From: Squalus acanthias
Lineage: Eukaryota
NCBI GenBank assembly: GCA_030390025.1
Contig: CM059432.1
Span: forward strand, 13,206,001 to 13,270,000
Direction: 5' to 3'
DNA: 64,000 nt
Shown here: positions 1 through 62,691 of the stretch, one piece after another
How positions within the stretch are numbered: position 1 is the first letter of the stretch
How the letters are laid out: every line of letters begins with the position of its first letter
The notes under the pieces: model-generated
What the model saw: the letters and a program-made list of their open reading frames with translations, nothing else
What the model was told of the DNA's origin: nothing
Databases searched by the model: none
Program-made: the position numbers and the translations under genes

Positions 1-679
1 GGGGCAATAATGGGGCACTAACAACTTACCGCCCGGGCGCAGCGAAATGAACGACTCCCGCTAACTTGGCCGGGAGGTTTGCAGCGGCGGTAAAACTTTG
101 CACCACAATCTCCTGCGCCCGGAGATCGTGATGTCAATTGCCATGCACATCACCTCAGTGGCGCCCCAGACCCGAACTTCAGTTCTGCCTCCTGCAGCAT
201 CGTCGGGCGAAAACACCGGCAGCTGCAGGAGGCGTTGTTCGGGAGGGCAGGCGCTTCAGGGGCGGATGTTAAAGGGGAGGTTGCCAAGGTAAGTAGCAAA
301 ATTTCTGAAATTTTTTTTTGCAATTTTTTTCAGTTCACCTGGGCCGTGATCGATCAGCCCGGCACTCTGCTGGAGTGCATGGGGCTGATCGTGCTGGATC
401 GTGGCTGCCGTCGGGGACAAGCTAACTGGTCCCAATGCAGAGCCTGCAGCGATGGCCCTTCCCTTTAAGGCAGGGAAGGAGCCTCAGATCGCGGCAGTGC
501 TGCACGGGACATTGTGCAGCGCTGCACCACGACCACCCCACCTGCTTGAAGCGCTCCACTTCTCTCCTGGAGCGCGAAACCCAATTTCGTGAAAGCTGGC
601 AATCATTAGCGCCTGGCGCTAAGTTTCCCAGCTTTCAAAAGTTACCACTCCCTAACGGGCGATACTGAATTTCTCCCCC
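1..679. mobile_element. Non-autonomous PIF/Harbinger element (MITE), left end cut by window edge
   Basis: Its first ~140 bp resemble the left subterminal region of the Harbinger at 16989 (shared ...tttgcagcggcg...atctcctgcgcccggagatcgtga). Its end, cgatactgaatttctccccc, matches that element's right TIR (cgataccgaatttctccccc). No coding remnant. Confidence 0.8.
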
Positions 680-5438: not shown

Positions 5439-5569
5439 AAAAAAAAAGCAAATACTGCGGATGTTGAGAATCTGAAATAAAAACAGAAAATGCTGAAAAG
5501 ATATCAACTCAGTTTCTCTGTCCACAGATGCTGCCTGTGAGTGTTTTCAGCATTTTCTGTTTTTATTTC
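5439..5569. mobile_element. Short fold-back Penelope pLTR-derived insertion
   Basis: Perfect 26-bp inverted repeat (5474-5499 / 5544-5569), sequence of the Penelope 3' end seen at 47769-47851, and a degenerate 13-bp TSD ttatcgaaaagag / ttgtctaaaagag. Confidence 0.65.
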
Positions 5570-5654
5570 TTGTCTAAAAGAGGTTACCTTCCAAATCAGT
5601 CAGCAAATAAATGATAGAGACCCAAACAACAGACAATTTGTTTGCCATTAGAAA

Positions 5655-6070: not shown

Positions 6071-6609
6071 CAACAGTAAAACAAAAGGAAAATAGTTAAG
6101 ATGTTGGAAATCTGAAATAAAAACAGAAAATGCTGGAAAACACTCAGCAGGTCAGGCGGCATCTGTGGAGAGAGAAACAGAGAGTTAACAGCCGAGATTT
6201 TCCGGGGGGTCAGCGGGTGTGATCGGCGGCGGGTCAGATGGGAAAGTGTTTTTTTTCCCCAGCGGGTCGGGACCCTGCTGTGAACCCGCTGCCACACGCC
6301 TATCCCCGATGTCGGGTCTGTCAACACTGAGCAGACCCAACACGCAGCGGCGGGGGACCCAATTCAGGTCATTATGACCTTGTTTAGAGATCATTAAGAA
6401 TACATTTGAGTTCACCTTTTGATTTTACGTGCTCGCCCTTTGAATTAAGTTTGACTAGTTTCAATTGTACTTTGACTGGTCTGAAAATCTCTGATTGAAA
6501 GTTAAAAAATAGCATTTCAGTTAAAATCATGAGATTTGATCACAGAGCCTATTCCTCTAAATTTTTCATGATGTTTGCCACTGGCAAAAAAAAATCCGAG
6601 ACTAAATTA

Positions 6610-28115: not shown

Positions 28116-29137
28116 CTGAAAAAGCACAGTAGGAAACGTCACTGATCACTGGGGTTACTCACAGTACAAACCGTTTAAAAAATTCCTAGATTCTGGGTTT
28201 ACTGAAATGGCACATCAGTGATTCAGGTGCTCTGATGCATGGCGCACACCCAAAATGTCACAACCTGTCTTTTCTCTTTACAAATACTGCTGTGTGTTTC
28301 CATAATTTTCTTTTTTATTCAGATTTTCTTTTTAAATGAATCCAATGATTCATATCTTTATTATATCTTTTATAATGCTGTCAAATAATGATGCCAACCG
28401 GACTTATTTATTCCTAGTTACTATTAATATCAAACTTTTGATTAATAAGAATCACAAGATCACAGCGCAAATACAGATGGGGAAGGCTTGTCTTGTCTTA
28501 GTTTATCTCTCCAGAAAGACCCTTCAGTCCCCCAGCACGGCATCCAATTCTTGCAAAAATAACGTCAAGATTTTTGTCTCCACTACCCGACCCAGAAATC
28601 CATTCCGTGTATTGATTGCTCTTTGTGTGAAAAACGTTCTGACATCAATCCTTTCACTAGTTTGAACCTGTGTCCCCTTATCTAACTATCAGGGTTTAGT
28701 TTGACGTCATGCACCAGACCTAGCTTTTCTGTTCCATGATATATTATACATATTTCTTTCAAATCAATTCTCTTCTCAAGTTGTCTCTTCTCAAGGCTGA
28801 AACGCCCAGGTTTCTTCAGTTATTCCTCATACTTCAGTTCAGTTGAGATGCTCGGGGCAGTCTCATAGCTTTTTTTGAAATGCCTCTAGTGTTTGAATCA
28901 CTACCCCGTGACTAGACCTAGTTACAGTGCTCAAAGTGTGGTCTGACCCGAACACAGTGCAGTTCCGGTATGTCTCCCTCTAAATTGTACTTCTGTTGTT
29001 TTAGTCTATTGCTCAGCAATCCATTTGCTTTGTTGATTGCTACGCCACAGGAATTTTGAGTCTACTAAAATCCCCAGATTTATCTTTCAGCTTCATCCTT
29101 AGTTATTTCAATACCATTCATGGAGTACACATGTTGC

Positions 29138-36758: not shown

Positions 36759-36928
36759 CCACTCTAATCTATCCCACTCTAATCTATCCCACTCTAATCT
36801 ATCCCACTCTAATCTATCCCACTCTAATCTATCCCACTCTAATCTATCCCACTCTAATCTATCCCACTCTAATCTATCCCACTCTAATCTATTCCACTCT
36901 AATCTATCCCACTCTAATCTATCCCACT
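36759..36928. repeat. 15-bp minisatellite (ccactctaatctatc) x ~11
   Basis: Read directly from the sequence; one variant unit. Confidence 0.95.
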
Positions 36929-37318: not shown

Positions 37319-37683
37319 ACACAATGTCACAAAAATTCTTCCCATTCAAAAGTAAATCTTCCATTTTCCACATTCGGAACAGAACACTCCTTGCGATTGT
37401 TATGCTCACCGACCGCAAAGATCAGTCAGTGCCTGGGTATGAGTTGCTGTTTTACAATCCTCAACAGCTTGTGTTTATGTGTAAACACCTGTCCTGTCAA
37501 GAAAGTTACTTTTTAGATATTTGAGGCTCTATTCCAATGACGCAGAAGTACAAGTTCATGCTTAGTTGAGTGCAGATTCAAACTCTCTGTCCTGCTTCCT
37601 TCAAGTTCCAATGACAAGTTCCAATGATCACAGTGCATTGCTGCAGAAATTGCAACCTTCACACCTAGTTACCTCTAATTATA

Positions 37684-37815
37684 CAATAGCAAAATACTGC
37701 GGATGCTGGAAATCCGAAATAACAACAGAAAACGCTGGAAAAACTCAGCAGGCCAGGCAGCATCCGTGGAGAGAGAAAGAGAGTTGACGTTTCAGGTCGA
37801 TGACCTTTCATCAGA
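37684..37815 (-). mobile_element. 132-bp Penelope pLTR-derived insertion starting at a hammerhead motif
   Basis: 13-bp TSD acctctaattata (37671-37683, 37816-37828). The minus strand reads CTGATGA-aaggtcatcgacct-GAAA-cGTC-aact. Confidence 0.85.
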
Positions 37816-40749
37816 ACCTCTAATTATATATGTCACACACTGAAGACAAGCCTGCCGTGGTCTAATCTTGTTTCCTAAAGCTGTTGTGACTAGCATTTGG
37901 AAGGTGATGAAACTGGAGGGCAATTCTTGTCTTGATTCTGGTCAGATTTTGAGAAGATTTACGCCAATCATATATTCTGATGGCCTCCAATTTTCCCAGT
38001 TCGCACTTACACAGAAATTATGGCAAAATTCTGCCCCAATTTCTGCCTCAATTTTGCCGATTGGAACTTACGTCCAAATTTCCTGCGGAGCTCACTTGCC
38101 TACGCCAGAACGTAAAAACCAGCATCAAACAAGTGCAAATCCAATGGTATTCTCTTGTATTCTAATTTCTATATTCTAAATGGTTGGACAGAGGCTTAAA
38201 TTACTAGTTCTTTTAGTCATTTCCTAACACAGATTATCTGCCCATTAATCTCAATGTTGTTTGTGGGACCTTGCTGTGTGAAAATTAGTTGCTACATTTT
38301 CCTACATTGCAACAGTGATTATACTTCAATAAAGCATTTAATTGGCTGTGAAGCTCTTTGGGACAAAGTGAAGGCGCTATATAAATGCAAGGTTTTTACT
38401 TTCTTTCTTTCTCCCTTCGTCCGCTGTCGGTGAGTCCAATTGTAAAGCCCTGCTGCCACCTCATCTAATTCAGCATAGACCTGGGGTCGAACACGAGACC
38501 CTCACCTGGTCAGTTCTACGCCAGGCAGCGCACTTGGTAAATGAACCATTAAGGGAGCAGCTCACCGACATTTTATGAATCTTAAAACAAATGATTAAAC
38601 AGTACCTGTTGTTCACTCATGAAGTATTTTTGGCACAGAAAAAGTCACATGCTTGGGTGCAGGCAAACACCTGGCTGGTTCTCAATCCTGATCAGCCAAT
38701 GCTTCATGCAAATTGCTGCCTATGGTCAGTGGGGCATTTGCCTCCAGCCTCATTCGACGTGCATAATTATTTTCATTAAAGAAAGGACAGGTAGCTGCTC
38801 TAATGGCCGGGGAGTAGGGGGAGATTAACGCAGGGGCCTATGGGGTCTGTGCTGAGGGGCCTCAGCTAAATATGGGGCCCCAAGCAAAACTCACCATAAT
38901 GCAGAAAAACTGAAGACAACCACTGGCTCAAAATATTCTAGCATTTAAAGATACTGTTAGATGGGGCAATGGCACAGCACCAGATTTGTTACAGTTCACA
39001 AGTTACAGAACACTTATTTGTTCAATTATGAGGAACCTGAGAAGCAAAGGTAATAAAATAATCTTTAATACGCAAAAATGCTCTCCATGGAAATGAAACT
39101 CCATAAATATTCTACGGCCTATTTCTCATAGAATCTTGCAGCACAGAAGGAGGCAATTCGGCCCATCGTGCCTGTGCCGGCTCTTTGAAAGAGCTATCCA
39201 ATTAGTCCCACTCCCATGTTCTTTCCCCATAGCCCTGCAAAAATAAAATCTTTGTGCATTCTACTGCTCAATTGTGTTTTCTTGGATCGGGGAGGGGAGT
39301 GGAGTTGCGCTGGGGTGGGGTGGAGTGGCCTCAAATGTTCTTTGTGCCCAAGAATTCTTAATCCGGATCTGCCAATGGTTGAGTGATCAAATGCAACACC
39401 AGGTGTGATACTGAGCCACAAAGATCAGACAGATCCCAGGTTTGATCACTGGACTGTGCTGTTAGCTGCTTGCAGCCAGAGTGACAGCAGACATGCTACA
39501 GGCTTCAGTCTCCTGTTCCTGATTATTAGGGACCCTTGACAGAAAGGGTAAATGTGGGGGAGAACATCGCTGAATTCTCCGTCTGGGCTGGCACATGAAG
39601 AATGGTCGCTGAGATCAAATCAGGTGCCCAAGAAACTGCACCCTAACCACGGGTCAGGGTCTTCAGGAGAGATGGGGAGAATGCTGGACAAGATTCAGGG
39701 GGTCGTAAATAAATCTAAACATAGGCCAGTTTAGAAACTCCAGGTTTAACAGTTCTCTGTTCCTGCCATTTGATATCAGCTTCCTTCGAGCTGTTTCTAG
39801 CTTATTAAAAAAAAACCTGATAAAACACTGCGGCTGGCTGAGGATCCTGATTTGTATTTACACTTGGCTGATGGTAACGCACGTTAGCAGTTCGGCATTC
39901 ACTACTGATTTGGCCCATCTCGCTTGTGGAAACAAAAACAATGAAAGACTGGCAGTCTCAGAGCACCCTCGATTTTTATTCCAACTGTTTCCGAGAGCTA
40001 TCCAAATTGGCTGCCAACTTGGCTGGTTTCCCCGGATCAGCTTGCAGCTGTGACTGGACTGAACACTGCTCCATTGCTCTGCCCCATCCCCAATCCTTTG
40101 TTCACAAACCCACCATCTTTCCAGTCAATCACCATCTCCATTCTTTCAATGGGATTTTTTTTTTCAGGCATTTTCACCTATTGAAACTAATACAGTCTTT
40201 CTCTCATTGTGCTGTAGTTCTAGCTGCAACCACCTGCTATGTTCACACTCTTCAATAGGAAGTAGACGGTTGGTCAGTTTATCCACCCAGCAAATGCAGT
40301 CCAACTGTCCCAAATGCCCACGGTGATGAATACCACACGCACTAGATCTGCATCAGTACTTTTGTCAAATTTGCCTCTCATCTTAGCAATATGGGCAGTG
40401 CCCACAATCCATCATAGGAACTATCACGAAACTCAACACCCATTAACCAGACTTCATCCAAATTAGTGCAGGAATTGATACACCAAAAACCTAAAAATAA
40501 AATTAACCTTAGGCTCCTGAATGAGTTTGCTGTTAATTTGAATCAGACTGGAATAAAACAGTGTCTGGTCACAATGCTCCGGCCATTGTGGTGCGGGCCA
40601 GGCTTGATGGAGCAGCTGGTCTTTTCTTGCCCGTCGATCTCGTATATTCGTGCGTTTGTAAGTCTAGCAGCCGATGAAAAGGGCATCAGGCTGTTCCTCT
40701 ATGGCATTTTTACCATATTATTAATAAGATCTTTTGTAATTACTAACTA

Positions 40750-40918
40750 TGGGGTAGAATTTCTGTGGGGTCCCCCAATCTCCTGCCGTAACTTCAGGCA
40801 GAGATCAGCGGAAACCTCAGAGAATTGGCATTCACGCCGTTTCTCCAGGGTTTCTGCCAATCCGCCGCCAAAGTTACAACGGGAGATCGGAAGAACCTCC
40901 ATGGAACTTACAGGCATA
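40750..40918. mobile_element. Short palindromic MITE
   Basis: Begins ggggtagaattt; imperfect fold-back (atctcctgccgtaactt ... aagttacaacgggagat). Confidence 0.55.
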
Positions 40919-43900
40919 TATGATTTAAATGGTATATAAATGTAATACCTAGTTGTCTGTACATTATTAAAATTTTGCATAGAACACACACTTTCTGTCC
41001 ATAAACATTACTTCCTGTTGTCATGAATTTTGGTTGCACTTTTGCATCTGCATTTACCATTATAAATTGCTACGTCAATATTTCCCATTCAATTTTGCTT
41101 TGTCATCCGTCATGATGTAGTTGCAGACTCTGCCACTAGGTGTCTCCATGTAGAGAGCTTCTGAAATCTCTAAACAATGTATATATATAAAAAAAGTATA
41201 TTCATCAACTAACTGGGTAATGCCATAGGCTATTTACTAGTAAATGATTATGCTTTTCCAACATTTGATGGCCACTATTTCTGTTTGATAAAATAGCTCC
41301 ACAGTTGCAGTGCTTCCAAACCCATGGCTGTTTTTAGCTTTTTATCGTAAATGGGAAAATGCTTAATGCTGCTTGGGGCAAAAGATCAATCAGGATCTGT
41401 TAAGATTGTTGAATATAAAATACAATCAACAAAGAACGTTTTCCCCTTTAAAAGTGAGGACAAGCTTGTTTGCTCTTAAAAGCTAAGCAATTCCATCTCC
41501 CAAACCCGCGACCTCTTCCACTGAGAAGGACAAGGGCAGCAGGCACATGGGAACACCACCACCTCTAAGTTCTCCTCCAAGTCACACACCATCCTGACTT
41601 GGAAATATATCGCCGTTCCTTCACCGTCGCTGGGTCAAAATCCTGGAACTCCCTCCCTAACAGCACTGTGGGAGTACCTTCACCACACGGACTGCAGCGG
41701 TTCAAGGCGGCGGCTCACCACCACCTTCTCGAGGGCAATTAGGGATGGGCAATAACATTTGTTTATTCATTTATGGGATGTGGGCGTCACTGGCAAGGCC
41801 AGCATTTATTGCCCATCCCTAATCGCCTTCTTGAACCGCTGCGCTCCTGACTTGTGCCTTGTAGATGGTGGAAAGGCTTTGGGGAGTCAGGTGAGATACT
41901 CGCCGCAGAATACCCAGCATCTGACCTGCTCCCGTTGCCACAGTATTTACGCTGTCCTTGCCAGTGACGCCCTCATCCCAGGAACGAATAAAACAAAAGC
42001 TCTGCCAGCAGTGGTGAGCCTTTCAGGCAGCGGGTGGAGGGGTGGTGGAAAATTGGGTCTGTGGCTACACTCACCTGATGCGTGCTGTGCTACTGATATA
42101 TGTGAGCCTTGAATTGCATACAGGTTATTTAAACAGCATAATTATTTGAACATGGTCCCTTGTGGAAAGTGGCGGTGTTTGGTTGTGTAGTGCTTATATC
42201 AGCTAGATAGGACAGCATATTTTTCAATGGACGGAGGCTTCCCTCAAATACAAGGTGTCACAGATAACAACCCATGTGGGCATCGGTGTATCAACCTCAG
42301 TGCCGATACGTAAATAAAGAGTCCGCACTTAACTAATGGTACCTGGCCACAGAAATATTATGCATGTCCATGGCCTTTTTCCAGGAGGTACCCATCATGC
42401 CATCGGTAAAGGGCAGTCCACGGTGGCTGCATTTTTGTAAGAAGAAGACTGGGTGGGAGGAATGACTCTTTGGAGACCCTTGCTACCCTCTGCATCCATG
42501 GTTGTTGCCCCACTGAGAAAACCCTAACAGTAAAGGATTATATTGGCTGGAAACTTGAGCATCCGCCACCTCTGTCTGCCGAGAACTGTACCATCCAGCT
42601 TTGGCAAAATGAGTATGTTCTTCAGGGAAGGAGACATCCTTACTCAGTCTGGCCTGTACGTGACTCTAGCCCCACATTAACGTGGTTGACTTTTAACTGC
42701 CCACTGAAGTGCCCTAGCAAGTAACTCAGTTTTTTTGAACCACTACAATGAATAACAAGGGTAAACCCGGTTGGGCCACTTGGCTGCGACTTAGGTTCAG
42801 GACATAACGTAAGGAGACCGTCCATCATGTTGTGTGGCACTACCACTGTGCTAAGTGGGATAGATTACAAACACATCCACCGGTCCTGCCTTTTCGTGGG
42901 ATATGTGGAACACTATTTGTTCCAGTCCTACTCAGGGTCCCCTCCCTCACCTCTTTTTCCGGTACATTGATAACTGTATCGATGTCGTTTCCTGCTCTCG
43001 CCCTGAACTAGAAAATTTCATTCACTTTGCTTCCAATTTCCACCCTTCCCTCACCTTCACATGGTCCATCTCCGACTCTTCCCTTCCCTTCCTCGACTTC
43101 TCTGTATCTATCTCTGGGGATAGGCTATTGACAAACATTCACTACAAGCCCACTGACTCCCACAGCTACCTGGACTACACTTCCTCCCACCCCGCTTCCT
43201 GTAAGGACTCCATTCCATTCTCCCAGTTTTTCTGTCTCTGCCGCATCTGCTCTGATGATGCCACCTTCCATACTACTGCTTCCGACATGTCTTCTTTTTT
43301 CCTCAACCGAGGATTCCCCTTTACCGTGGTTGACACGGCCCTTGACCGTGTCCGTTCTATTTCCCGCACTTCTGCTCTCACCCCTTCCCCTCCCTCCCGG
43401 AACCACAATAGGGTTCCCCTTGTCCTCACCTTTCACCCCACCAGCCTCCACATTCAACGGATCATCCTCCGCCATTTCCGCCACCTCCAGCGTGATCCCA
43501 CCACCAAACACATCTTCCCCTCACCTCCCCTTTCAGCATTCCGAAGGGACCGCTACCTCCGCGACACCCTGGTCCACTCCTCTACCACCCCCAACACCCC
43601 TTCCCCTTCGCCCGGCACCTTCCCGTGCAAGCGCAGGAGATGCAACACCTGCCCTTTTACCTCCTCCCTTCCCACTGTCCAGGGCCCCAAACACTCCTTC
43701 CAGGTGAAACAGCGATTTACTTGTGCTTCTTGCAATTTAGTATACTGTATTCGCTGCTCACGATGCGGTATCCTCTACATTGGGGAGACCAAACGCAGAT
43801 TGGGTGACCGCTTTGTGGAACACCTCTGTTCAGTCCGTAAGGGGGACCCCGAGCTTCCAGTCGCCTGTCACTTTAATTCTCCGCTCCACTCCCACTCTGA

Positions 43901-43987
43901 CCTCTCCATCCTCGGCCTCTTACACTGTTCCAATGAAAATGAGAAGTCGCACAACACCAGGTTATAGTCCAACAGATTTATTTAATT

Positions 43988-44025
43988 TTACAAGCTTTCG
44001 GAGCTATCGCTCCTTCGTCAGGTAA
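43988..44025 (-). ncRNA. Minimal type I hammerhead ribozyme (Penelope B, left arm)
   Basis: uuac-CUGACGA-a-ggagc-gaua-gcucc-GAAA-gc-UU-guaa: 4-bp stem I, 5-bp stem II, loopless palindromic stem III (AAGCUU). Confidence 0.8.
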
Positions 44026-44257
44026 GTTAGCAATGAGAGAATCTCCCAGAATTCACAATTTAAACCCAGACAAAATCTATTCACATTATTCGCTACAACA
44101 AAGAGCACAGCCAAGACAATGAGATGTGTCCCAGGGGGTCCAGCGTGTCAAACCACCTGCTGGCTGCATATCCTGTCAATTTGTGTTCTTGTGTTTTTTA
44201 AAAAACAAAAAAAAAAACAAAAAAAAAACACCTGAGAAGACCGGCCATGATGTCAAG

Positions 44258-45516
44258 TCACGTTCTGTATCGTGACATGAACCCGATATCGCGATTGAGG
44301 CCATCCTCATGAGTGCGGAACTTGGCTATCAGTTTCTGCTCTATGATTTTGCGCTGTCGTGTATCTCGAAGGCCGCCTTGGAGAACGCTTACCCGCAGAT
44401 CCGAGGCTGAATGCCCCTGGCTGCTGAAGTGTTCCCCGACTGGGAGGCAACCCTCCTGCCTGGCGATTGTTGCGCGGTGTCCGTTCATACGTTGTCTCAG
44501 TGTCTGCATGGTCTCGCCGATGTACCATGCTCTGGAGCATCCTTTACTGCAACGTATCAGGTAGACAACGTTGGCCGAGTCACATGAGTATGTACCGTGT
44601 ACCTGGTGGGTAGTGTCCTCACGTGTAATGATGGTATCTGTGTCCATGATTTGGCATGTCTTGCAGAGGTTGCCGTGGCAGGGTTGTGTGGTGTCTTGGT
44701 TGCTGTTCTCCTGAAAGATGGGTAATCTGCTGCGAACGATGGTACTTTTGAGGTTAGGCGGCTGCTTGAAGGCGAGTAGTGGAGGCGTGGGGATGGCCTT
44801 AGCAAGGTGTTCGTCGTCATCGATGACATGTTGAAGGCTGCGAAGAACATGGCGTAGTTTTTCCGCTCCGGGGAAGTACTGGACGACGTAGGGTACTCTG
44901 TTGGTTGTGTCCCGTGTTCGTCTTCTGAGGAGGTCTATGAGGTTTTTCGCTGTGGCCCGTCGGAACTGTCGATCGACGAGTCGAGCGTCATATCCCGTTC
45001 TTACGAGAGCGTCTTTCAGTGTCCGTAGGTGTCCATCGCGTTCCTCCTCGTCTGAGCAGATCCTGTGTATTCGCAGGGCTTGTCCATAGGGGATGGCTTC
45101 TTTAACGTGGTTAGGGTGGAAGCTGGAGAAGTGGAGCATCGTGAGGTTGTCCGTGGGCTTGCGGTAGAGTGAAGTGCTGAGGCGTCCGTCTTTGATGGAG
45201 ATTCGTGTGTCCAAGAATGAAACCGATTCTGAGGAGTAGTCCATGGTGAGTTTGATGGTGGGATGGAACCTGTTGATGCTATCGTGTAGTCCTTTCAGTG
45301 ATCCTTCGCCGTGGGTCCAAAGGAAGAAGATGTCGTCGATGTATCTGGTGTACAGCGTTGGTTGGAGGTCCTGTGCAGCGAAGAAGTCTTGCTCGAACTT
45401 GTGCATGAAGATGTTGGCGTATTGGGGTGCGAATTTGGTCCCCATGGCTGTTCCGTGTGTTTGGGTGAAAAAATGGTTGTCGAAGGTGAAGACATTGTGG
45501 TCAAGGATGAAGCGGA
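44258..45516 (-). CDS. Penelope RT (C-terminal part), Zn-finger linker and GIY-YIG endonuclease; uninterrupted but 5'-truncated
   Basis: GTAMGTKFAPQYANIFM, RYIDD, FLD, LYRKPTD, PCHGNLCKTC, VYLIRC...WYIGET...R...H, GLN; no stops or frameshifts. Confidence 0.9.
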
Positions 45517-45877
45517 TCCAAGGCGGCCTTCGAGATACACGACAGCGCAAAATCATAGAGCAGAAACTGATAGCCAAGTTCCGCACTCATGAGGATGGCC
45601 TCAATCGCGATATCGGGTTCATGTCACGATACAGAACGTGACTTGACATCATGGCCGGTCTTCTCAGGTGTTTTTTTTTTGTTTTTTTTTTTGTTTTTTT
45701 TTTTAAAAACACAAGAACACAAATTGACAGGATATGCAGCCAGCAGGTGGTTTGACACGCTGGACCCCCTGGGACACATCTCATTGTCTTGGCTGTGCTC
45801 TTTGTTGTAGCGAATAATGTGAATAGATTTTGTCTGGGTTTAAATTGTGAATTCTGGGAGATTCTCTCATTGCTAAC

Positions 45878-45915
45878 TTACCTGACGAAGGAGCGATAGC
45901 TCCGAAAGCTTGTAA
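45878..45915 (+). ncRNA. Minimal type I hammerhead ribozyme (Penelope B, right arm)
   Basis: ttacCTGACGAaggagcgatagctccGAAAgcttgtaa, identical to the left-arm copy. Confidence 0.8.
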
Positions 45916-46373
45916 AATTAAATAAATCTGTTGGACTATAACCTGGTGTTGTGCGACTTCTCATTTTTGTCCACCCCAGTCCAACGCCGGCATCTCCACA
46001 TCATGTTCCAATGAAGCTCAACGTAAGCTCGAGGAACAGCACCTCATCTTTCAATTAGGCACTTTACAGCCTTCTGGACTCAACATCGAGTTCAACAATT
46101 TCAGACCATAACCTCTACCCCTATCATTTTTTTTCTCTTTTTCACATGGCAGCTGTTGATCATTCTGCCATTGCCATTTACACTTCATCTAGAGTCATCT
46201 TTTGTTTCTTAAGTTGTCCCATTACCATCTCCTTTTGCCTTGCGCCATCATCCCTTTTGTCTCTTAATCTCTCCTGCCTTCCATCCTATCACAGACCTTC
46301 CCTTTTGTTCTTTCCTCCCCTCCCCCCTTTCCCTACACTTGCTTAAAAACCTGTTCGATCTCCAGCTTTTTCC

Positions 46374-46410
46374 AGTTCTGACGAAGGGTCATCGACCTGA
46401 AACGTTAACT
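46374..46410 (+). ncRNA. Minimal type I hammerhead ribozyme (Penelope A)
   Basis: agtt-CTGACGA-agggtc-atc-gacct-GAAA-cg-TT-aact: stem I agtt/aact, palindromic stem III AACGUU. Confidence 0.8.
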
Positions 46411-46421
46411 CTGTTTCTCTC

Positions 46422-47768
46422 ATATAGATACATAGATACATAGAAAATAGGAGCAGAGTAGGCCATTCGGCCCCTCGAGCCTGCTCCGCCATTCGATGAG
46501 ATCATGGCTGATCATCCAAACTCAGTACCCTGTACCTGCCTTCTCCCCATATCCCTTGATACCTTTAGCTTTAAGAAATATATCTAACTCATTCTTGAAT
46601 ATATTTAATGGCCCAGAAATTGATCTCGCTCTGTTCCCGCGGGGGTAAGGAGCAGGCGCGATCTCTCACTCCGCGTTGGCTTTTTCAGATCCAGCTCGCA
46701 CGAACTTGATGTTCCAGACATCAGCTGGGCAGTGCTTGCGTATCCCACTGGCGTAGTAAATTCGTGCGAGCTGTGGGATCACGTGACTCAGTTAGAGCCA
46801 ATGGCAGCACACCATCTTCCATTCATAAGTTTCACATACGTGCTGTGAAAGCTATGAATCTTACACCCCCCCAAAATAACAGCTAAACCTCAATTAAATT
46901 TAAAAAAAAACCATCACATTAATAAAATAAGTATAGTTAAATAAATTAACCATTTTAAATAAAAAATTAAATTTTTGAAAAAATTTAAAATCTTTTAAAA
47001 AGTTATAAAAATAAACTTACCTGTCTTTAAAGTCTCTAAAAAAGATATACCTGTTAAAAAAAATTCAAAAAAATACTTAATTCACTACTTACCTTGTTAA
47101 AAGTGGGTCTTACTCCTCCTTTTTCCATTTCTAAAATCTTCCGTCCTTACCTGCGCGTCCAAAGCACTAAGTGCACAGCGTGCGCGCAGCCTGTAGCGCG
47201 CACGCGATGCACCGAGGAACCGCCCCCTTTTCCAAAGACCAAGTGCCGGTTTTCAGCGCATGCGCAGGGCATGCAGAAAACCGGCAATTGGAGAGAGAAT
47301 ACGCGAGAGTACGCAGTGCGTACTCTCGCGCAGCGGGATCAATTTTTGGCCCAATGACTTGGCCTCAACTACCTTCTGTGGTAGAGAATTCCACAGGTTC
47401 ACCACTCTCTGGGTGAAGAAAGTCTTCCTCATTTCTGTCCTAAATGGCTTACCCCTTATCCTTAGATTATGACCCCTGGTTCTGGACTCTCCAACCATCG
47501 GGAACATTCTTCCTGCATCTAGTTTGTCCAGACCTGTCAGAATTTTATATGTTTCGATGAGATCATCTCTCATTCTTCTATACTCCAGCGAGTATAAGCC
47601 CAATCGACCCAATCTCTCCTCATATGTCATTCCTGCCATCCCAGGTATCAGCCTTGTGAATCTTCGCTGAACTCCTTCCATGGCAAGAACATCCTTCCTC
47701 AGATAAGGCGACCAAAACTGCACACAGTACTCAAGGTGTGGTCTCACCAAGGCCCTGTACAACTGCAG
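46422..47768 (-). mobile_element. CR1 LINE 3' fragment inserted in the Penelope A pLTR, itself split by a MITE
   Basis: ORF 47253-47762 LVRPHLEYCVQFWSP...WNSLP, with a (tatgtatc)n tail at ~46422-46445. Confidence 0.9.
46610..47352. mobile_element. Harbinger-type MITE
   Basis: 20-bp TIRs ggcccagaaattgatctcgc ... gcgggatcaatttttggccc, 3-bp TSD AAT and an AT-rich core. The flanks rejoin into CR1 sequence as at 11711-11740. Confidence 0.85.
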
Positions 47769-48224
47769 CAGATGCTGCCTGACCTGCTGAGTATTTCCAG
47801 CATTTTCTGTTTTTATTTCAGATTTCCAGCATCCACAGTATTTTGCTTTTGTACAAACAGATCTAGCAGCTCAAAACTGGGCATCCATGAGGCACTACAG
47901 GCTATCAGAAGAATTGTATACCACCATAATCTATAACCTCATGGCCCGGCATATCTCTCACTCCTCCATCACCATCAAGCCAGATGACTGATCCTAGTTC
48001 GATGACATATGTAGAAGAGTATGCCAGGAGCACTACCAGGTGTACCTGAAAATGAGATGTCAACCTGGTGAAGTTACAATACAGGACTACATTCATGCTA
48101 AACAGCAAAAGCAGCATGCTATAGACAAGCTAGGCGATCCCACAACCAATGGACCAGGTCAAATCTCTGCAGCCCCACTATATCCAGTTGTGAACGGTGC
48201 TGCACAATTACACAACTAACGAGA

Positions 48225-48630
48225 GAACATAAGACATAGGAGCAGGATTAGGCCATTTGGCCCCTCGAGCCTGCTCCACCATTCAATAAGATCATGGCTG
48301 ATCTGATCTTGGCCTCAACTCCACTTTCCCACCCGATCCCCATAACCCTTGACTCCCCTGTAATTCAAAAATCTGTCACTCTCAACCTTGAATATATCCA
48401 ATGACCCAGCCTCCACAGCTCTCTGAGGAAGAGAATTCTAAAGATTCACGACCCTCAGAGAAGAAATTTCTCCTCATCTCCATCTTAAATGGACGACCCC
48501 TTATTCTGAAACTATGTCCCCTCATTCACGAGGGTAAACATCCTCTCAGCATCTACCCTGTCAATCCCCCTCAGAATCTTATGCGTTTCAATGAGATCAC
48601 CTCTCATTCTTCTAAACTCCAATGAGAGGA
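48225..48630 (-). mobile_element. CR1 3' fragment
   Basis: Typical CR1 3' UTR (ggagcaggattaggccatttggcccctcgagcc) and RT end. Confidence 0.8.
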
Positions 48631-49234
48631 GATGCTCCATCATCAACCTCCTCCTCAATGATGTCAGAGATGGCGGGCCATTTAATCTTCCGCGCCTGCG
48701 TAGTTATTTTCGTTGTGAAGCCCGCTCACTGCTGCGCGTGACCTCGAGACACTGCGCGGCCGCACGGCTTGAAGGTAACGTTGGTCATGACATGTCTCTA
48801 CTGTGCCAGTGATCAAAACTCAATTTTTCTGTGCTGCCCAAAACCTCCTCTTTAATGGCTCGCTGCAGCCCTTTAAGTGCTGCTACCTCGCTGGATTTTA
48901 CCAATCTTCAGCCAAGTTTGCAATTATGCCAAGCTCCCTGGTGAAAGCTTTTCCTGCATCCGTAGCCTATTCAAATTAGGGTGAGAGAATCCGAAAAATG
49001 GCCTTTAGTGCCGCACGCACTGACTGACAAGCCTTCACATTAGGCCAGCTCACTCCCATTTTCAGAAAATTGAGGCCAGTGAGTCAATGTATGCATTGCT
49101 GGAGGTCGATTCAAAAGCAACACAGGCAGATTGGCTTGATCCTTTAATCTGGCAACAATTCATGTTAATGATTGGGGTATAGAATCCTGAAGAAGAGTGA
49201 ACAAAATGAAGGAGGAGGAAAATGTTTAAAAAAA

Positions 49235-49860
49235 CCAACAATAACAACTTGTATTTATGTTGCACCTTTAATGTAGTAAAACGTCCCGCGGCGCTTCACG
49301 CCTTTTGTTATCAAACAAAATTTGACACCGAGCCACAGAAGGAGATATTAGAGCAGGTGACCAAAAGCTTGGTCAAAGAGGTAGGTTTTAAGGAGCGTCT
49401 TAAAGGAGGAAAGAGAGGTAGAGAGGCGGAGAGGTTTAGGGAGGGAATTCCAGAGCTTAGGGCCTCGGTAGCTGAAGGCGCGGCCGCCAATGGTGGAGCG
49501 GTTAAAATCAGGGATGCTCAAGAGGCCAGAATTGGAGGAGCACAGAGATCCCGGTGGGCTGTGGGGCTGGAGGAGATTACAGAGATAGGGAGGGGCGAGG
49601 GCCATGGAGGGATATGAAAACAAGGATGAGAATTTTAAAAGCGAGGCGTTGCTTAACTGGGAGCCAATGCAGGTCAGCGAGCACAGGGGCGATGGGTGAA
49701 CAGGACATGGTGCGAGTGAGGACATGGGCAGCCGAGTTTTGGATGAGCTCAACTTTATGAAGGGTAGAACGTGGGAGTCCGGCCAGGAGTGCGTGAGAAT
49801 AGTCAAGGCTGGTGGTAACAAAGGCATGGATGAGCAGATGAGCTGAGACAGGGGCGCTAA
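49235..49860 (-). mobile_element. L2 LINE 3' fragment
   Basis: LIHAFVTTSLDY, LIQNSAA, LHWLPV, LWNSLP...KTYLFDQAF. Confidence 0.85.
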
Positions 49861-50322
49861 AGGAGAATGAAGCTTTTCTTTGATCTCTTCTAGAGTGTAA
49901 GGCAAAACTGGATGTGCATTTATTCACTGCAAATATGCATTACATTTCATATGGCTTTGAAAAGAGTGTTTGGTATAGCATGACACCCACACATATCATT
50001 GGCAAGTTCAAAATACACATCCCATTTCAGACTGTGAGACCTCACATAACCAATAGATGGCAGTGTAGCATAGTTTTTGTCTCTCATACACGCACAGCGG
50101 CAGGGATTCTTGTTTTAGAGATAAACTTGAAACAAATTCAAAACAAGAATATTTCTATAATCCCAGAATATCAGACGATGGGATACGCTATCGCCCCTTT
50201 TGCGCTCTCGCCCAAGACTAATTTCACCCCCTGTGTTTCATCTCAATACTCCTTACAGAACTGTCCACTCCCGATGGGGACACTCAGCAGCCCATTTTAC
50301 ACCCTGCCTGATTTTACTTTCT

Positions 50323-50551
50323 CGATAGCAAAATACTGCGGATGCTGGAAATCCGAAATAACAACAGAAAACGCTGGAAAAACTCAGCAGGCCAGGCAGC
50401 ATCCGTGGAGAGAGAAACAGAGTTAACGTTTCAGGTCGAAGACCTTTCGTCAGAACTGGAAAAAAAAGCAGGAAACCGACCTGAAACGTTAACTCTGTTT
50501 CTCTCTCCACGGATGCTGCCTGGCCTGCTGAGTTTTTCCAGCGTTTTCTGT
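50323..50551. mobile_element. Fold-back Penelope pLTR insertion with hammerhead (50421-50457, minus) inside a palindromic MITE (~50275-50665)
   Basis: Perfect 76-bp inverted repeat (50363-50438 / 50477-50552) and an 11-bp TSD ttttactttct. Confidence 0.85.
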
Positions 50552-50841
50552 TTTTACTTTCTATTGATTTCAATGGAATATAAAATCGTGGGCAGCGTGT
50601 AAAATGGGCGGCTGATCTGATCCCGTCAGTTTTGAGTTGGGATGATTAGGTTAAAATTACCCCCCCCCTGTGACTTTGTTGTCTGATCTCTTCTTTGATA
50701 ATTAGCAAGAACGGGTTAATTAATTCACTCAGTAAGTACCTTACTGCGCAGATCCTGTTGGGAGATTGGCAGTGCAAATGCTAATATAATTCAAACTGCA
50801 TGATGTAAGACATTTGGGTAAGCCAGATTTAGGCATCATTA

Positions 50842-50940
50842 GTTCTGATGAAGGGTCATCGACCTGAAACGTTAACTCTGTTTCTCTCTCCACAGATGCT
50901 GCCTGACCTGCTGAGTGTTTCCAGCATTCTCTGTTTTTAT
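50842..50940 (+). mobile_element. 99-bp Penelope pLTR-derived insertion starting at a hammerhead motif
   Basis: 14-bp TSD tttaggcatcatta (50828-50841, 50941-50954); begins gttCTGATGAagggtcatcgacctGAAAcgttaact. Confidence 0.85.
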
Positions 50941-50954
50941 TTTAGGCATCATTA

Positions 50955-51850
50955 ACTCGCCTCCCACATTCTACCCTCTGTAAACTTCAGGTCATCCAAA
51001 ACTCGGCTGCTCGTGTCCTAACTCGCACCAAGTCCCGTTCACCCCTCACCCCTGTGCTCGCTGACCTACATTGGCTCCCGGTTAAGCAACGCCTCGATTT
51101 CAAAATTCTCATCCTTGTTTTCAAATTCCTCCATGGCCTCGCCCCTCCCTATCTCTGTAATCTCCTCCAGCCCTACAATCCTCCGCGATAGCTGCGCTCC
51201 TCCAATTCTGGCCTCTTGAGCATCCCTGATTATAATTGCCTCACCATTGGCAGCTATGCCTTCAGCTGTCAAGGCTCTAAGCTCTGGAATTCCCTCCCTA
51301 AACCTCTCTGCCTCTCTACCTCTCTCTCCTTTAAGACGCTCCTTAAAGCCTACCTCTTTGACCAAGCTTTTGGTCACCTGCCCTAATCGTAGACACAAAG
51401 AGAATATTTCCACATATGGGGAAGAGCAAAACTGGAGGCCATCAATATAAGATAGTCACCAAGAAATCAAATAGGGAATTCAAAAGAAACTTCATTACCT
51501 AAAGAGTGGTGCGAATGTGGAACTCGTTACCACAGGGAGTGGTTGAAGCGAATAGTATAGATACATTTACGGGGAGGCTAGACAAGCATATGAGGGAAAA
51601 GGGAATAGAGGGTTATGCTGATAGAGTTAGATGAGGAAAGACGGGAGGAGGCTCAAGTGGAGCATAAACGCCAGCATGGACTGGTTGGGCCGAATGGCCT
51701 GTTTCTGTGCTGTATATCCTATGTAATCCTATGTATTATCTTCTTATGTGGCTCGGTGTCAAATTTTGTTTGATAACGCCCCTGTGATGCACCTAGGGAC
51801 GTTTTACGACGTTAAAGGCGCTATATAAACACACGTTGTTGTTGTTGTTG
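50955..51850 (+). mobile_element. L2 3' fragment with a CR1 3' fragment (~51390-51735) inserted in its tail
   Basis: The L2 tail ...ttttggtcacctgccctaat resumes as atcttcttatgtggctcggtgtcaaa; the insert matches 12485-12820. Confidence 0.85.
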
Positions 51851-52399
51851 AGTAATAGACGGGGTAGTAAACCCCAGGCGGTTCCTTAACGAGGAGTTAG
51901 ATGAAGAGGTTAAGAATTTTTCTGGTGTCCTTGATGAATATTCATGCCGGGAATATTAATCCCAGTGTTCTTACAATAATGCATCCTGTGCAAATATGTC
52001 CACATAGGATACTTCACATTTCAGCATATTCATGCTCCAAAATTCAGAGGAGCCCAGAGTGGCCACCACACACGTCCAATGTAATCCTGTCAGTGCAATG
52101 GAGACATATAAAAAAGAACGGAATCCCCAGGAGTAGAAACTGTCACTTTGATTGAAGCATACTTTTTGTTCAAGGATTTTAGGAAAACATTCCATCAACA
52201 AAATGGAATAGTTTTCATACCATTTTCTGTGTGAATTTTGTACTTATTGAAGTGAGGGATGTTTGTGCTGGGGAATGGAACACTTTCCACTTCAGGTCAT
52301 AAGTATCTACATCAATCATTCGCAAGTCAGGTCAGGCAAGAGGGTTAAAGCTCCCTCTACTCTAACCCAACAATATGTCTCAGCCCCAATCTCAGAAGG

Positions 52400-53205
52400 A
52401 AAGAAAGAAATAGAAGCAGGAGTAGTGCATACGGCCCCTCGAGCCTGCTCCACCATTCAATAAGATCGTGGCTGATCATCTACCTCAACTCCACTTTCCT
52501 GCACTATCCCCGTATCCCTTGATTCCCCTAGAGTCCAAAAATCTATTGATCTCTGTCTTGAATATACTCAACGACTGAGCATCCACAGCCCTCTGGGGTA
52601 GAGAATTCCAAAGATTCACAACCCTCTGAGTGAAGAAATTTCTCCTCATCTCAGTCCTAAATGGCTGACCCCTTATTCTGATACAGGTTGAGTGTCCCGA
52701 ATCCAGCAACCTCGGGACCGAGGCCGAGCCGGTTTTCGGGTTTTTCCCGGACTTCGGAACGTGTTTCTGATGTCCGAAGTCCAGAAACGCCCGAGCCCAG
52801 GTTGCGATATTTCCGGACTTCGGACATCAGAAACACGTTCCGAGTCCGGAAATGCCTGGGCCCAGGTTGCGATATTTCCAGTTTTTGGTAAGCCTCCCTC
52901 AGGGTGTCCGGATTCCGGAACATTTTACGGATTCCGGACGACCCTGCCACCAATCGTCCCGGAGTCCGGAACATTCCGGAACTCCGGATTTTGGACGCTC
53001 AATCTGTACTATGACCCCTGGTTCTAGACTCCCCAGCCAGGGGAAGTATCCTCCCAGCATTAACCCTGTCAAGCCCCTTAAGAATTTTGTATATTTCAAT
53101 GAGATCACCTCTCATTCTTCTAAACTCTAGGGAATGTAGACCGAGTGCTAATCTACTCAATCTCTCCTTATAGGGCAATCCCCTCATCCCAGAAATCAGT
53201 CTAGT
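52400..53205 (-). mobile_element. CR1 3' fragment split by a Tc1/pogo MITE
   Basis: ORFs 52999-53214 and 52485-52709 are consecutive parts of the CR1 RT C-terminus. Confidence 0.85.
52684..53006. mobile_element. Tc1/mariner-pogo (Tigger-like) MITE
   Basis: TA TSD; TIRs caggttgagtgtcccgaatcc ... ggattttggacgctcaatctg; many tccgga motifs and an internal ~40-bp hairpin. Confidence 0.85.
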
Positions 53206-53207
53206 GA

Positions 53208-53340
53208 AAAGCAAAATACTGCGGATGCTGGAAATCTGAAATAAAAACTGAAAATGCTGGAAACACTCAGCAGGTCAGGCAGCATCTGTGAAGAGAGAAA
53301 CAGAGTTAACGTTGCAGGTCGATGACCTTTCATCAGAACT
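53208..53340 (-). mobile_element. Penelope pLTR-derived short element starting at a hammerhead (GAAA mutated to GCAA)
   Basis: The minus strand begins agttCTGATGAaaggtcatcgacctGCAAcgttaact and ends gcagtattttgctttt. Confidence 0.8.
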
Positions 53341-54544: not shown

Positions 54545-55062
54545 GTCTACCCAGCCTCTGACCTGCTCTTGTTGCCAAAGTATTTATGTGGCTGGTCCAG
54601 TTAAGTTTCTGGTCAATGGTAACCCCCAGGATGTTGATGGTGGGGGATTCGGCGATGGTAATGCCGTTGAATGTCAAGGGGCGGTGGTTAGGCTCTCGCT
54701 TGTTGGAGATAGCCATTGCCCGACACTTCTGTGGCGCGAATGTTACCTGCCACTTATCAGCCCAAGCCTGAACGTCGCCCAGGTCTTGCTGCATGCGGGC
54801 ATGGACTGCTTCATTATCAGAGGAGTTGTGAATGGCACTGAACACTGTGCAGTCATCAGGGAACATCCCCATTTCTGACCTTATGTTGGAGGGAGGGTCA
54901 TTGATGAAGCAGCTGAAGATGGTTGGGCCTAGGACACTGCCCTGAGGAACTCTTGCAGCGATGTCCTGGGCTGTGATGATTGACCTTCAACCACCACAAC
55001 CATCTTCCTTTGTGCTAGGTATGACTCCAGCCAGTGGAGAGTTTGCCCCCCGATTCCCATTG
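54545..55062 (-). mobile_element. CR1-group LINE internal RT fragment
   Basis: Reverse-complement match to 2965-3475 (ORF 54516-54872). Confidence 0.85.
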
Positions 55063-56008
55063 GCTCTTGGTCATTCTTCTTCTCTCCTCATCTAAAGGCA
55101 CTGCCTCATGCTGCGAAGTATTCCATGGTCTCTGGTTCCATGCTTACTTGACCAATCTTCATAAATGAATCAAGACAATGGGGGTCATTTTAACGTAGGG
55201 CGACTGTGTAAAACAGGCAATATCGAATCGGCCGCTAGTTATACATTTCTCCCGATTCTCATTTCCGATGTTTAAAGGGCAGTTGATTCGATATTGTCCA
55301 CTTTGCACTTTCACCCAAAGTTAGAATTACCCCCACTGTGTGTTGGAGGCTATTCAGCTAAGAGATTCAACTATCAGAGTTGAGTCCAATTCTGTCCTCT
55401 ACCCTTTCTAAGGGGAATTATTAGATAGTGATGAGAAGCATGGCTGATATTTCCATTTCCTCGGCCGGGAGTGCTCAGGCCAATTGTACTGCCCCAGTTG
55501 ATGTCCCGGCAGAAATCGAGGCCTCGATCCTAACTCTGGGCGGGTGGGTAACGCAGCGAGTTGGGAACTCACCCGCTGCTCCGGAAATGAAGCTTGGGCT
55601 ACTTTAACTCTTGGGCCTCGCTTCAAACCCACCGGCCGACTTCCCGCCCAGAGCGGGTGGAAAGCTGGCCGGAAGCAGCGGTCCAGAGGCCGCCCGCCAA
55701 CGTGAGGTAGCTGCCGGAGCTCTCTCACGGGAATCTCGTGTTCAGGAAGGGGTGGGGGGGCGGGGACGGGTGGGTGGGCGTTCGAGGCAGGGAAGGCATA
55801 AGCTTTCCTCATGGGTCCCAGAGGTGGCGCTCCCGCTCCTCCCGGCCCCAGAAAGGAGAGGGAAAAAAAAGCATACCTTTTTCCAAACTCTGCTTCTCCC
55901 TGGCAGGTTACGACTGGCTTCCACCTGACGGGAAAGCTGGGGCGGCTGCACCACTCAAGCCTCGGTTACAATTGACCTCACCGGGATCCGGTATGCACTT
56001 GTAAAGAA

Positions 56009-62284: not shown

Positions 62285-62620
62285 GCTGGCAGCTGTCCTT
62301 CATTCTGCCAGCGCAATTCACACTTCATCTAGAGCTATCCTTTGTCTCTTAACCTGTCCCATTACCATCTCCTCTTGCCTTGAATATCTCTTAATGTCTC
62401 TTAATCTCTCCTGCTTTCTGTCCTATCACTGACCTTCCCTTTTGTTCTTTCATCCCCTCCCCCTTTTCCCAGCCCTAAACTTGCTTTAAAATTATATTTC
62501 ATTTCCTGCTTTTTTCCAGTTCTGACAAAAGGTCTTCGACCTGAAACGTTAACTCTGTTTCTCTCTCCACGGATGCTGCCTGGCCTGCTGAGTTTTTCCA
62601 GCGTTTTCTGTTGTTATTTC
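62285..62620 (+). mobile_element. Penelope A-family 3' UTR/pLTR fragment with a degenerate hammerhead (CTGACAA)
   Basis: Colinear with 46147-46420 and 47769-47820. Confidence 0.8.
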
Positions 62621-62691
62621 TTATTTGATTCTAGTTCCATTAGCTGTATACAAGAAAGAAATACATGCCAAAACCCTCACTAAAACCCTTC

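What the first reader, a model, noticed from the sequence alone, without database searches (positions are those of the whole stretch)
37684..53340. Family of ~100-135 bp hammerhead-headed mini-retroelements with long TSDs
Seen: three independent insertions (37684-37815 minus, 13-bp TSD; 50842-50940 plus, 14-bp TSD; 53208-53340 minus) start within 3 nt of each other, at the 5' strand of hammerhead stem I ((a)gttCTGATGA). They then run through the short 3' terminal sequence of Penelope family A. Further pieces lie at ~5440, ~6100, 46374/47769, 50323 and 62515, giving about ten in 64 kb. Established: Penelope pLTRs carry minimal hammerheads, and non-autonomous hammerhead retroelements (retrozymes) exist in animals. 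Inference: random 5' truncation should not give a shared boundary. Either this is a discrete ribozyme-headed SINE-like unit mobilised by the Penelope RT/GIY-YIG protein, or the hammerhead fold is a strong stop or template-switch point for the RT.
Basis: partly seen in the sequence, partly recalled or inferred. Interest (0 to 1): 0.72.

Follow-up and report, generated by a model that had tools for sequence, protein, structure and literature searches.

The report
Penelope stubs mark likely RNA start
These 100-135-base pieces are the terminal stubs of a Penelope-type jumping gene, not a separate SINE family, and many begin at the first bases of its hammerhead motif, about 30 bases below a TATA-like box, likely because the copying enzyme starts inside the RNA and runs off its 5' end, so the genome would record where the element's transcript begins.

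Summary
The copies are real. The window holds 9 loci (11 arms) of the terminal repeat of a Neptune-type Penelope element. Three arms start at unit +1 to +4; 2 of these 3 have TSDs (13 and 14 bp).

In the window alone the clustering is weak (post hoc P 0.03-0.32). In one public DNA run, 189 contigs leave the element at +2 into unrelated flanks, against 228 at the listed 3' end. Neighbouring positions were not shown, and a second species did not list +2.

A separate SINE or retrozyme is not supported. The short copies fall into both subfamilies beside long copies (monophyly rejected, p-AU 0.003). They lack Pol III boxes and tandems, and begin 30-33 nt upstream of the cleavage site. A hammerhead fold cannot stop RT at +1.

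Best reading: +1/+2 is likely the transcript start (Inr match, TATA-like box at -31 to -33; the same pair occurs in a second family). RT primed at the two internal 'tail' sites would run off that end. No RNA 5' end was seen. I found this in no paper, but the scan reported the same reading before, in this and other genomes.

The parts
37684..37817 (-). c1: short copy, unit +2..+4 to +135 (with tail), subfamily A2, intact minimal hammerhead core; 13-bp TSD at 37671-37683 and 37816-37828
50842..50940 (+). c2: short copy, unit +1/+2 to +100 (no tail), subfamily A1, intact core; 14-bp TSD at 50828-50841 and 50941-50954
53208..53340 (-). c3: short copy, unit +1 to +133, subfamily A1, core broken (GCAA); no TSD; base before +1 is G where the element has C
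50325..50556 (.). c4: head-to-head inverted pair; minus arm -19 to +133 (tail), plus arm +20 to about +99 (no tail); 11-bp TSD; subfamily A2
62287..62622 (+). c5: longer copy, -232 to about +105, subfamily A2, core broken; TATA-like 62485-62492, Inr match 62515-62520; reference for the read lay
42874..43935 (+). c6 part 1: RT-to-GIY-YIG reading frame of family A (P0002), Neptune-type CxxxxCxxC linker; an 8-bp TSD candidate brackets 42874-47851
46006..46421 (+). c6 part 2: ORF end, 265-nt 3' UTR, then unit +1 (46374) to +48
46342..46349 (+). TATA-like CTTAAAAA at -32 (6 of 8 to TATAWAWR)
   Evidence: motif consensus recalled
46371..46376 (+). Inr match (BBCABW) with A at +1; also reads as a 3' splice site (TTTTTCCAG then T)
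   Evidence: motif consensus recalled
46374..46410 (+). minimal type I hammerhead: stem I +1..4/+34..37, core CUGANGA, 5-bp stem II, GAAA, palindromic ACGU; predicted cut after +33 (46406)
   Evidence: architecture from PMC4209133
47769..47851 (+). c6 part 3: rest of the unit with tail, after a 1.35-kb insertion (46422-47768)
6081..6189 (-). c7: older short copy starting at +31, near but not at the predicted cut; no TSD
5439..5571 (.). c8: older inverted pair, plus arm from +32 (no tail), minus arm from about +77 (tail)
28287..28326 (+). c9: weak, decayed remnant of the unit's 3' part

Best explanation
The short copies are terminal-repeat stubs of a Neptune-type Penelope-like element whose shared 5' edge is likely the start of the element's RNA: the element's RT/GIY-YIG protein would prime on nicked DNA, begin copying at one of two internal sites about 100 and 133 nt into that RNA, and run off its 5' end. 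Shown: the unit is the 3' terminal sequence of copies carrying the RT-EN frame; two 3' end classes; TSDs; a +2 hotspot in one run; short copies in both subfamilies; TATA-like and Inr motifs. From papers on other PLEs: the promoter lies in the pLTR, RT initiates internally at the two tail ends, and uncut RNA is the main template. Inferred: a transcript made from the upstream repeat of a partial tandem starts at +1/+2 and carries the same initiation signal near its 5' end, so priming there gives a fixed-length product much like retroviral strong-stop DNA. Priming in the downstream repeat gives the long, variably truncated copies. The stubs lose the TATA-like box and would be dead on arrival, so they are by-products and not a self-propagating family.
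For: run X1: 189 contigs have loose ends before +2 with unrelated flanks (agreement 0.34). It is the only one of X1's four listed 5'-side rows with low agreement; the 3' end row at +103 has 228. No row at the cut site (+34, place 62551) appears among the 19 rows shown. Summed depth at +33..+47 is 4.1, 5.8 and 13.3 times that at -88..-59 in X1, X3 and X15 (confounded by reference divergence).

Inr match with A at +1 in 2 of 2 copies that reach upstream; TATA-like at -32 (c6) and -33/-31 (c5). Family B has the same pair (TATA-like at -30 from an Inr 13 nt before its core). Only 244 of 2177 Inr matches in the window have such a box at -29..-33. CTTAAAA at about -31 is in the loose-end consensus of X1, X3 and X15.

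the short copies are not a clade. Both inverted pairs have one arm with and one without the tail.

Papers: PMC11167929 (two internal RT starts; ribozyme cleavage not needed; no reads at the cut); PMC2377424 (transcript starts in the upstream pLTR); PMC3846280 (TATA plus Inr in a rotifer pLTR).
Against: No RNA 5' end was observed; contigs cannot show one. The neighbours of +2 are hidden (1030 rows), so the sharpness of the peak is unmeasured. Run X3 (another organism) and X15 did not list +2 among their 6 rows. X1 may be the window's own sample. The listed peak is +2 (G), one base inside the Inr A, and the majority base before it is T, not a cap-derived G. The TATA-like boxes are only 6 of 8 and such matches are common (2, 6 and 12 in the three regions scanned). 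No partial tandem was seen, and the frame that opens in the core found no PLE protein continuing from it, so it is not shown that the unit lies at the head of the mRNA. In D. virilis the start is about 120 nt upstream of the hammerhead, with an intron between. All 3 short copies have T at +9 and all 3 upstream-reaching copies have C, a possible subfamily trait. Window clustering alone is not significant post hoc.
Confidence: 0.62

Rival explanations
1. The boundary is a splice acceptor. The RNA starts upstream, an intron ends at AG|T (+2/+3), and stubs are copies of spliced RNA with a tiny or foreign first exon.
For: TTTTTCCAG before +3 is the only 9-of-9 acceptor match in c6's 313 nt. A branch-like CTCTAAC precedes it in the loose-end consensus of X1, X3 and X15. 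The D. virilis Penelope intron ends at the 5' end of helix I (PMC4209133). An exon-terminal G would explain a peak at +2.
Against: c1 and c2 abut their TSDs with no exon-1 sequence. Flanks at +2 share no sequence (agreement 0.34). No GT..AG joint to +3 appears among the 15 joints shown (39 hidden). No GTRAG donor lies in either 3' UTR. The branch motif is absent from c5 and c6 while the A-tract at -31 is kept.
Confidence: 0.12
2. RT pauses or the 5' junction resolves preferentially at +1..+4 on a longer RNA, through the U-tract just upstream, a bound protein, or microhomology. The hammerhead fold itself is one version of this.
For: c1 and c2 show 1-2 nt of overlap between TSD and element. A U5-8 tract lies at -3..-7. 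c4's inversion breakpoint is nearby (-19/+20).
Against: Annealing at the U-tract would give junctions at -3..-7, not +2. A fold-caused stop would lie at +25 or +37 (inference). The head folds no better than shuffles. It does not explain the promoter-like motif pair in two families.
Confidence: 0.1
3. A discrete SINE-like or retrozyme-monomer family with its own master copies, mobilised in trans.
For: Fixed-looking ends and TSDs. T at +9 in 3 of 3 short copies versus C in 3 of 3 longer ones. PLE-derived retrozyme monomers are described in vertebrates (bioRxiv 10.64898/2026.07.22.740005).
Against: One clade rejected (p-AU 0.0026, 8 rows). No tRNA head; A-box best 5-6 of 8 at +64..+108 and B-box 5 of 7. 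No tandem of the unit. It starts 30-33 nt before the cut, so it is not a cleavage-to-cleavage monomer. The C/T site is a CpG. The 3' ends are the ordinary PLE tail ends.
Confidence: 0.07
4. Ordinary smooth 5' truncation biased to short products; three ends coincide by chance and the +2 row is merely the top of a broad distribution.
For: Post hoc P is 0.03-0.32. 8 of 11 arms start elsewhere. X3 does not list +2. PLEs are known to be heavily 5'-truncated (PMC8557442).
Against: 189 unrelated-flank contigs at one base approach the 228 at the listed 3' end. A smooth decay would put its top position nearer the 3' end, not at the Inr. P is 0.0003-0.005 for the named window.
Confidence: 0.09

Closest known systems
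5'-truncated, inverted and solo-pLTR insertions of EN+ Penelope-like elements, Neptune clade (PMC8557442 passages; PMC3846280 passages and Discussion)
   Same: RT plus C-terminal GIY-YIG with a CX4CXXC linker, hammerhead in the terminal repeat, optional ~33-nt tail, inverted pairs, TSDs of 8-14 bp.
   Different: In the parts I read, 5' truncation is described as variable and solo pLTRs without TSD are put down to recombination or deletion. Here many copies share one 5' base and carry TSDs.
Poseidon PAc of Anolis carolinensis (Frangieh et al. 2024, PMC11167929; parts 1-2 of 4 read, supplements searched by term)
   Same: Two 3' ends about 33 nt apart, roughly 100-135 nt downstream of a hammerhead; an ATG inside the core; uncut RNA as template.
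   Different: The parts read map RT starts, not the RNA 5' end or run-off products. Here the ATG frame is not linked to the ORF.
Minimal hammerheads of metazoan PLEs (Cervera and de la Pena 2014, PMC4209133; parts 1-2 of 4 read)
   Same: 4-bp stem I, extra base before stem II, palindromic ACGU in place of stem III, dispersed single copies 'probably related to truncated PLEs'.
   Different: That paper proposes cleavage and circularisation as the template source. Here copies begin before the cut, not at it. The pair closing stem II is A-U or G-U, not G-C.
Metazoan non-LTR retrozymes (PMC7229834 passages; bioRxiv 10.64898/2026.07.22.740005 parts 1-3 of 5)
   Same: Short, non-coding, type I hammerhead, PLE-derived, with long TSDs when present.
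   Different: Retrozymes are tandem repeats of about 200-350-nt monomers in the animals tested, processed by two ribozymes into circles. These are single stubs with one minimal motif and PLE tail ends.
D. virilis Penelope promoter (PMC2377424; parts 1-3 of 4 read)
   Same: Transcription starts inside the upstream pseudo-LTR; an Inr is annotated.
   Different: TATA-less; start at 371 with an intron at 416-491 before the hammerhead. Here the proposed start is the hammerhead's first base.

Membership tests
EN+ Penelope-like element (Neptune type) | linked to an ORF with PLE-type RT and C-terminal GIY-YIG | tested here: met
   c6 joins the unit to P0002 and the ORF end. 34 relatives up to E 5e-102, several carrying PF01541. 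P0002 itself had no Pfam hit at 0.001.
EN+ Penelope-like element (Neptune type) | CX2-5CxxC linker between RT and EN | tested here: met
   CKRRRCNTC in P0002; clade trait from PMC8557442. No RT tree was built.
EN+ Penelope-like element (Neptune type) | optional 30-40-nt tail; inverted pairs | tested here: met
   3' ends at about +99..105 and +133..135; c4 and c8 each have one arm of each kind.
EN+ Penelope-like element (Neptune type) | partial tandem forming a 5' pLTR before the ORF | tested here: inconclusive
   c6 is 5'-truncated inside RT; no tandem junction in the window; searches found no ORF continuing from the unit.
Minimal type I hammerhead | core CUGANGA, GAAA, stems I and II, NUH site | tested here: met
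   intact in 4 of 6 family A copies that cover it (c1, c2, c4, c6), broken in c3 and c5; no Rfam hit.
Minimal type I hammerhead | self-cleavage (as a dimer) | not testable with these tools
   The cofold MFE of two c2 heads was not the active dimer; no assay.
Non-LTR retrozyme | tandem repeats with a hammerhead in each unit | tested here: not met
   No tandem of the unit among 17 TRF rows; the copies are single or head-to-head.
Non-LTR retrozyme | linear or circular monomer RNA cut from ribozyme to ribozyme | not testable with these tools
   Only contigs of runs guessed to be RNA were laid; the DNA stubs start 30-33 nt before the cut.
SINE | Pol III (tRNA/7SL/5S) head with internal A and B boxes | tested here: not met
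   0 tRNA genes, 0 Rfam hits, poor and misplaced box matches (consensus recalled).
SINE | own lineage separate from the autonomous partner | tested here: not met
   3 short versus 5 other rows, p-AU 0.0026; window copies only; c6a, c8p and c8m were left out of the tree.

The most novel reading that the evidence does not exclude
Vertebrate Penelope mRNA begins at the first base of its hammerhead under a TATA/Inr promoter in the terminal repeat. Its RT routinely makes a fixed 100/133-nt 'strong-stop' DNA from that 5' leader. When integrated alone it gives these stubs. When it jumps to the RNA's other end it would rebuild the partial tandem that restores the promoter, the unexplained step of the PLE cycle.
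Probability: 0.3. Interest if true: 0.7.

Novelty: new variant of a known kind. Interest (0 to 1): 0.45.

Why it matters
[quoted passage not shown] If the stubs' shared edge is the RNA start, genomes alone map PLE promoters and show that integration uses uncut RNA. That gives a direct test with CAGE and in vitro TPRT. It also warns repeat annotators that such fixed-length pieces need not be SINEs or retrozymes. The parts themselves (minimal hammerhead, tail, truncated PLE ends) are known.

Tried and rejected
No assembly is held, so the genome-wide BLAST histogram could not be run.

Pattern scans: metagenome (0 hits with 29 nt; 6 with 20 nt), viral (0) and prokaryote genomes (5). All 11 loci match only 17-26 nt around the pattern and are chance.

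Rfam gathering scan: 0 hits. The loose core pattern alone is not enriched (10 matches versus 5.7 +/- 2.4 expected).

Raw-read run X21 gave only 12 reads and no information on ends. X15 contigs that begin at -7/-6 were not used, since contigs cannot show RNA starts.

The 42-codon frame from the ATG in the core found nothing among longer proteins, and 11 hits in the representative library. The 10 retrieved are short unrelated ORFs or a repeat protein; none is a PLE protein. P0037 was not retrieved.

A start at the ribozyme cut was considered for c7 and c8, but they begin at +31 and +32 and no +34 row was listed, so it is undecided. A displaced TSD for c3 was sought and not found. The sigma-70 scan is irrelevant to a eukaryote.

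Literature searches for the TSS or run-off reading. None showed it in titles or abstract starts, and one search returned 0 papers. The library lacks most subscription papers and Repbase/Dfam entries. The bioRxiv preprint's supplements were not seen and may list this shark-type repeat as a retrozyme monomer. The term search in PMC11167929's three text supplements found nothing; its figures are not held.
Full report
Coordinates. Unit +1 is the A of AGTTCTGA (46374 in the long copy). No assembly is held for this window. The nearest named relative of the family's protein is from the shark Chiloscyllium (65% identity over 59% of the query), so the DNA is shark-like.

Observation. BLAST of the three named copies finds 9 loci with 11 arms. 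c1 (37684-37817, minus) has a 13-bp TSD overlapping the element by 2 nt. c2 (50842-50940) has a 14-bp TSD. c3 (53208-53340, minus) has none, even 3.2 kb out, and its core is broken. They start at +2..+4, +1/+2 and +1. The other eight arms start at about -1500, -232, -19, +20, +31, +32, about +68 and about +77. Three of 11 within 4 nt is not significant post hoc (P 0.03-0.32 under seven nulls), but would be for a window named in advance (0.0003-0.005).

What the family is. The pieces at 46374 and 47769 belong to one long copy from about 42874 to 47851. It carries an RT-to-GIY-YIG frame with a CKRRRCNTC linker, the ORF end and a 265-nt 3' UTR. It is interrupted by a second Penelope family and by a 1.35-kb repeat. 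Full-length relatives run about 890-930 aa. The unit is thus the 3' terminus of a Neptune-type PLE. Its two 3' end classes (about +99..105 and +133..135) are the known optional tail, and both inverted pairs have one arm of each kind. The hammerhead is the minimal type of PMC4209133 (parts 1-2 read), intact in 4 of 6 copies, with the predicted cut after +33. Rfam does not detect it.

Is the boundary real beyond the window? Twenty of 24 listed runs hold the upstream stretch or part of it. Four runs were laid on c5 at 80% likeness. In X1 (35,767 records laid), 189 contigs have loose ends before place 62519 (+2), with median length 255 and agreement 0.34, meaning unrelated flanks. The listed 3' end row (+103) has 228 and mixes tails with flanks. 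X1's other three 5'-side rows (149, 124, 20) have agreement of 0.6 or more; the two larger ones continue into the family's own upstream sequence where c5 diverges. No row at the cut (+34) is among the 19 shown.

Limits of that lay. 1030 rows were hidden, so +1, +3 and the other neighbours are unknown. X3 (72,158 records, another organism) and X15 did not list +2 among their six rows. X21 gave 12 reads. X1 may be the window's own sample, and c5 is a diverged reference. Summed depth at +33..+47 is 4.1, 5.8 and 13.3 times that at -88..-59. That fits many short copies but is confounded by divergence; X3 also falls 6.2-fold along the UTR. A finer lay on a near-consensus copy was not obtained, so the peak's sharpness remains open.

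Not a separate family. Diagnostic sites split the copies into A1 (c2, c3, c6, c7) and A2 (c1, c4, c5), with support 98/97. Holding the three short copies together is rejected (p-AU 0.0026; 8 of 11 rows used, the three shortest left out). One site cuts the other way: +9 is T in all three short copies and C in c4, c5 and c6, at a CpG. There is no tRNA head, no convincing Pol III box and no tandem. Retrozymes are tandem, cut-to-cut monomers (PMC7229834 passages; bioRxiv 10.64898/2026.07.22.740005 parts 1-3). These stubs start 30-33 nt before the cut.

Not a fold-caused stop. RT reaches the 3' strand of stem I (+34..37) and stem II before +1, so the fold is unwound by then (inference). The head is no more stable than shuffles (z -0.07 and -0.83) and its MFE is not the hammerhead.

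Likely mechanism. +1 is the A of a full Inr match in c5 and c6. A TATA-like tract (6 of 8) lies at -32 in c6 and at -33/-31 in c5. The same tract appears at about -31 in the loose-end consensus of three runs. Family B has a TATA-like box 30 nt above an Inr that lies 13 nt before its core (consensus motifs recalled). The pairing occurs for 244 of 2177 Inr matches in the window, so each case alone is weak. Papers supply the frame. Penelope is transcribed from within the upstream pLTR (PMC2377424, parts 1-3). A rotifer pLTR has TATA plus Inr (PMC3846280 passages and Discussion). The anole protein starts RT at two internal sites that match the tail ends, uses uncut RNA, and no reads begin at the cut (PMC11167929, parts 1-2). 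An mRNA starting at +1/+2 would carry those start sites 100 and 133 nt from its 5' end, and priming there would yield exactly these stubs by run-off.

What is not shown or cuts against. Unshown: the RNA start, the tandem junction, and a link from the unit to the ORF (searches found none). Against: the listed peak is at +2 rather than the Inr A, with T rather than G before it. The same bases read as a splice acceptor, as in D. virilis; that rival needs an exon 1, which c1, c2 and the X1 flanks lack. PMC3846280 also raises an antisense template for PLEs, under which an RNA 5' end would not set this boundary.

Earlier scan notes. I noted the start-or-splice run-off idea before seeing them. Searches then showed eight notes, two from this genome, reaching the transcript-start reading. 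One gave me the TATA lead, which I tested on window copies. They are unreviewed and are not counted as evidence. I did not reproduce their extra-G claim.

Verdict. Best explanation: run-off copies of the 5' leader of Penelope RNA (0.62). I found it in none of seven targeted searches (listings only), in a library that lacks most subscription papers. New variant of a known kind; interest 0.45.

Noticed in passing
window 43936-45967: A young second Penelope family (B) inserted in family A's ORF: 12-bp TSD, inverted arms 98.9% identical over 451 nt, an open 442-aa RT-EN frame (44258-45586, minus), and its own hammerhead at 45882 and 44021.
   Followed up: partly
window 45839-45907: Family B has a TATA-like box 30 nt above an Inr match at 45869, with the hammerhead core at +14; its head folds better than shuffles (z -3.1).
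   Followed up: partly
window 46422-47768: A 1.35-kb repeat splits the family A unit at +48, just after the hammerhead, with a few bases lost and no TSD seen. It shares sequence with pieces at 11545, 33830, 48221 and 52405; it looks CR1-like (recalled, not tested).
   Followed up: partly
window 53208-53333 (minus), also c1 and c2: The ATG inside CUGAUGA opens a stop-free frame through the whole unit, as the anole PAc ORF starts in its hammerhead. Copies with CUGACGA lack the ATG. No PLE protein continuing it was found.
   Followed up: yes
window 6189 and 5504: Two older arms start at +31 and +32, 2-3 nt before the predicted cut; a minor class near the cleavage site is possible.
   Followed up: partly
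joints on window 62250-62680: Contigs show strand switches and back-jumps inside the unit (for example 62538/62572 in X1 and X3, and 62564 or 62568 back to about 62537 in X1), consistent with inversions and mini-tandems in the hammerhead region.
   Followed up: no
window 21214-21431, 36759-36928, 57011-57428: Minisatellites of 54, 15 and 23 nt period.
   Followed up: no
window 2959-4083, 29371-30451, 54548-55065, 57535-58419 and others: An abundant young repeat family (about 90-94% identical, at least 10 pieces), class not determined.
   Followed up: no
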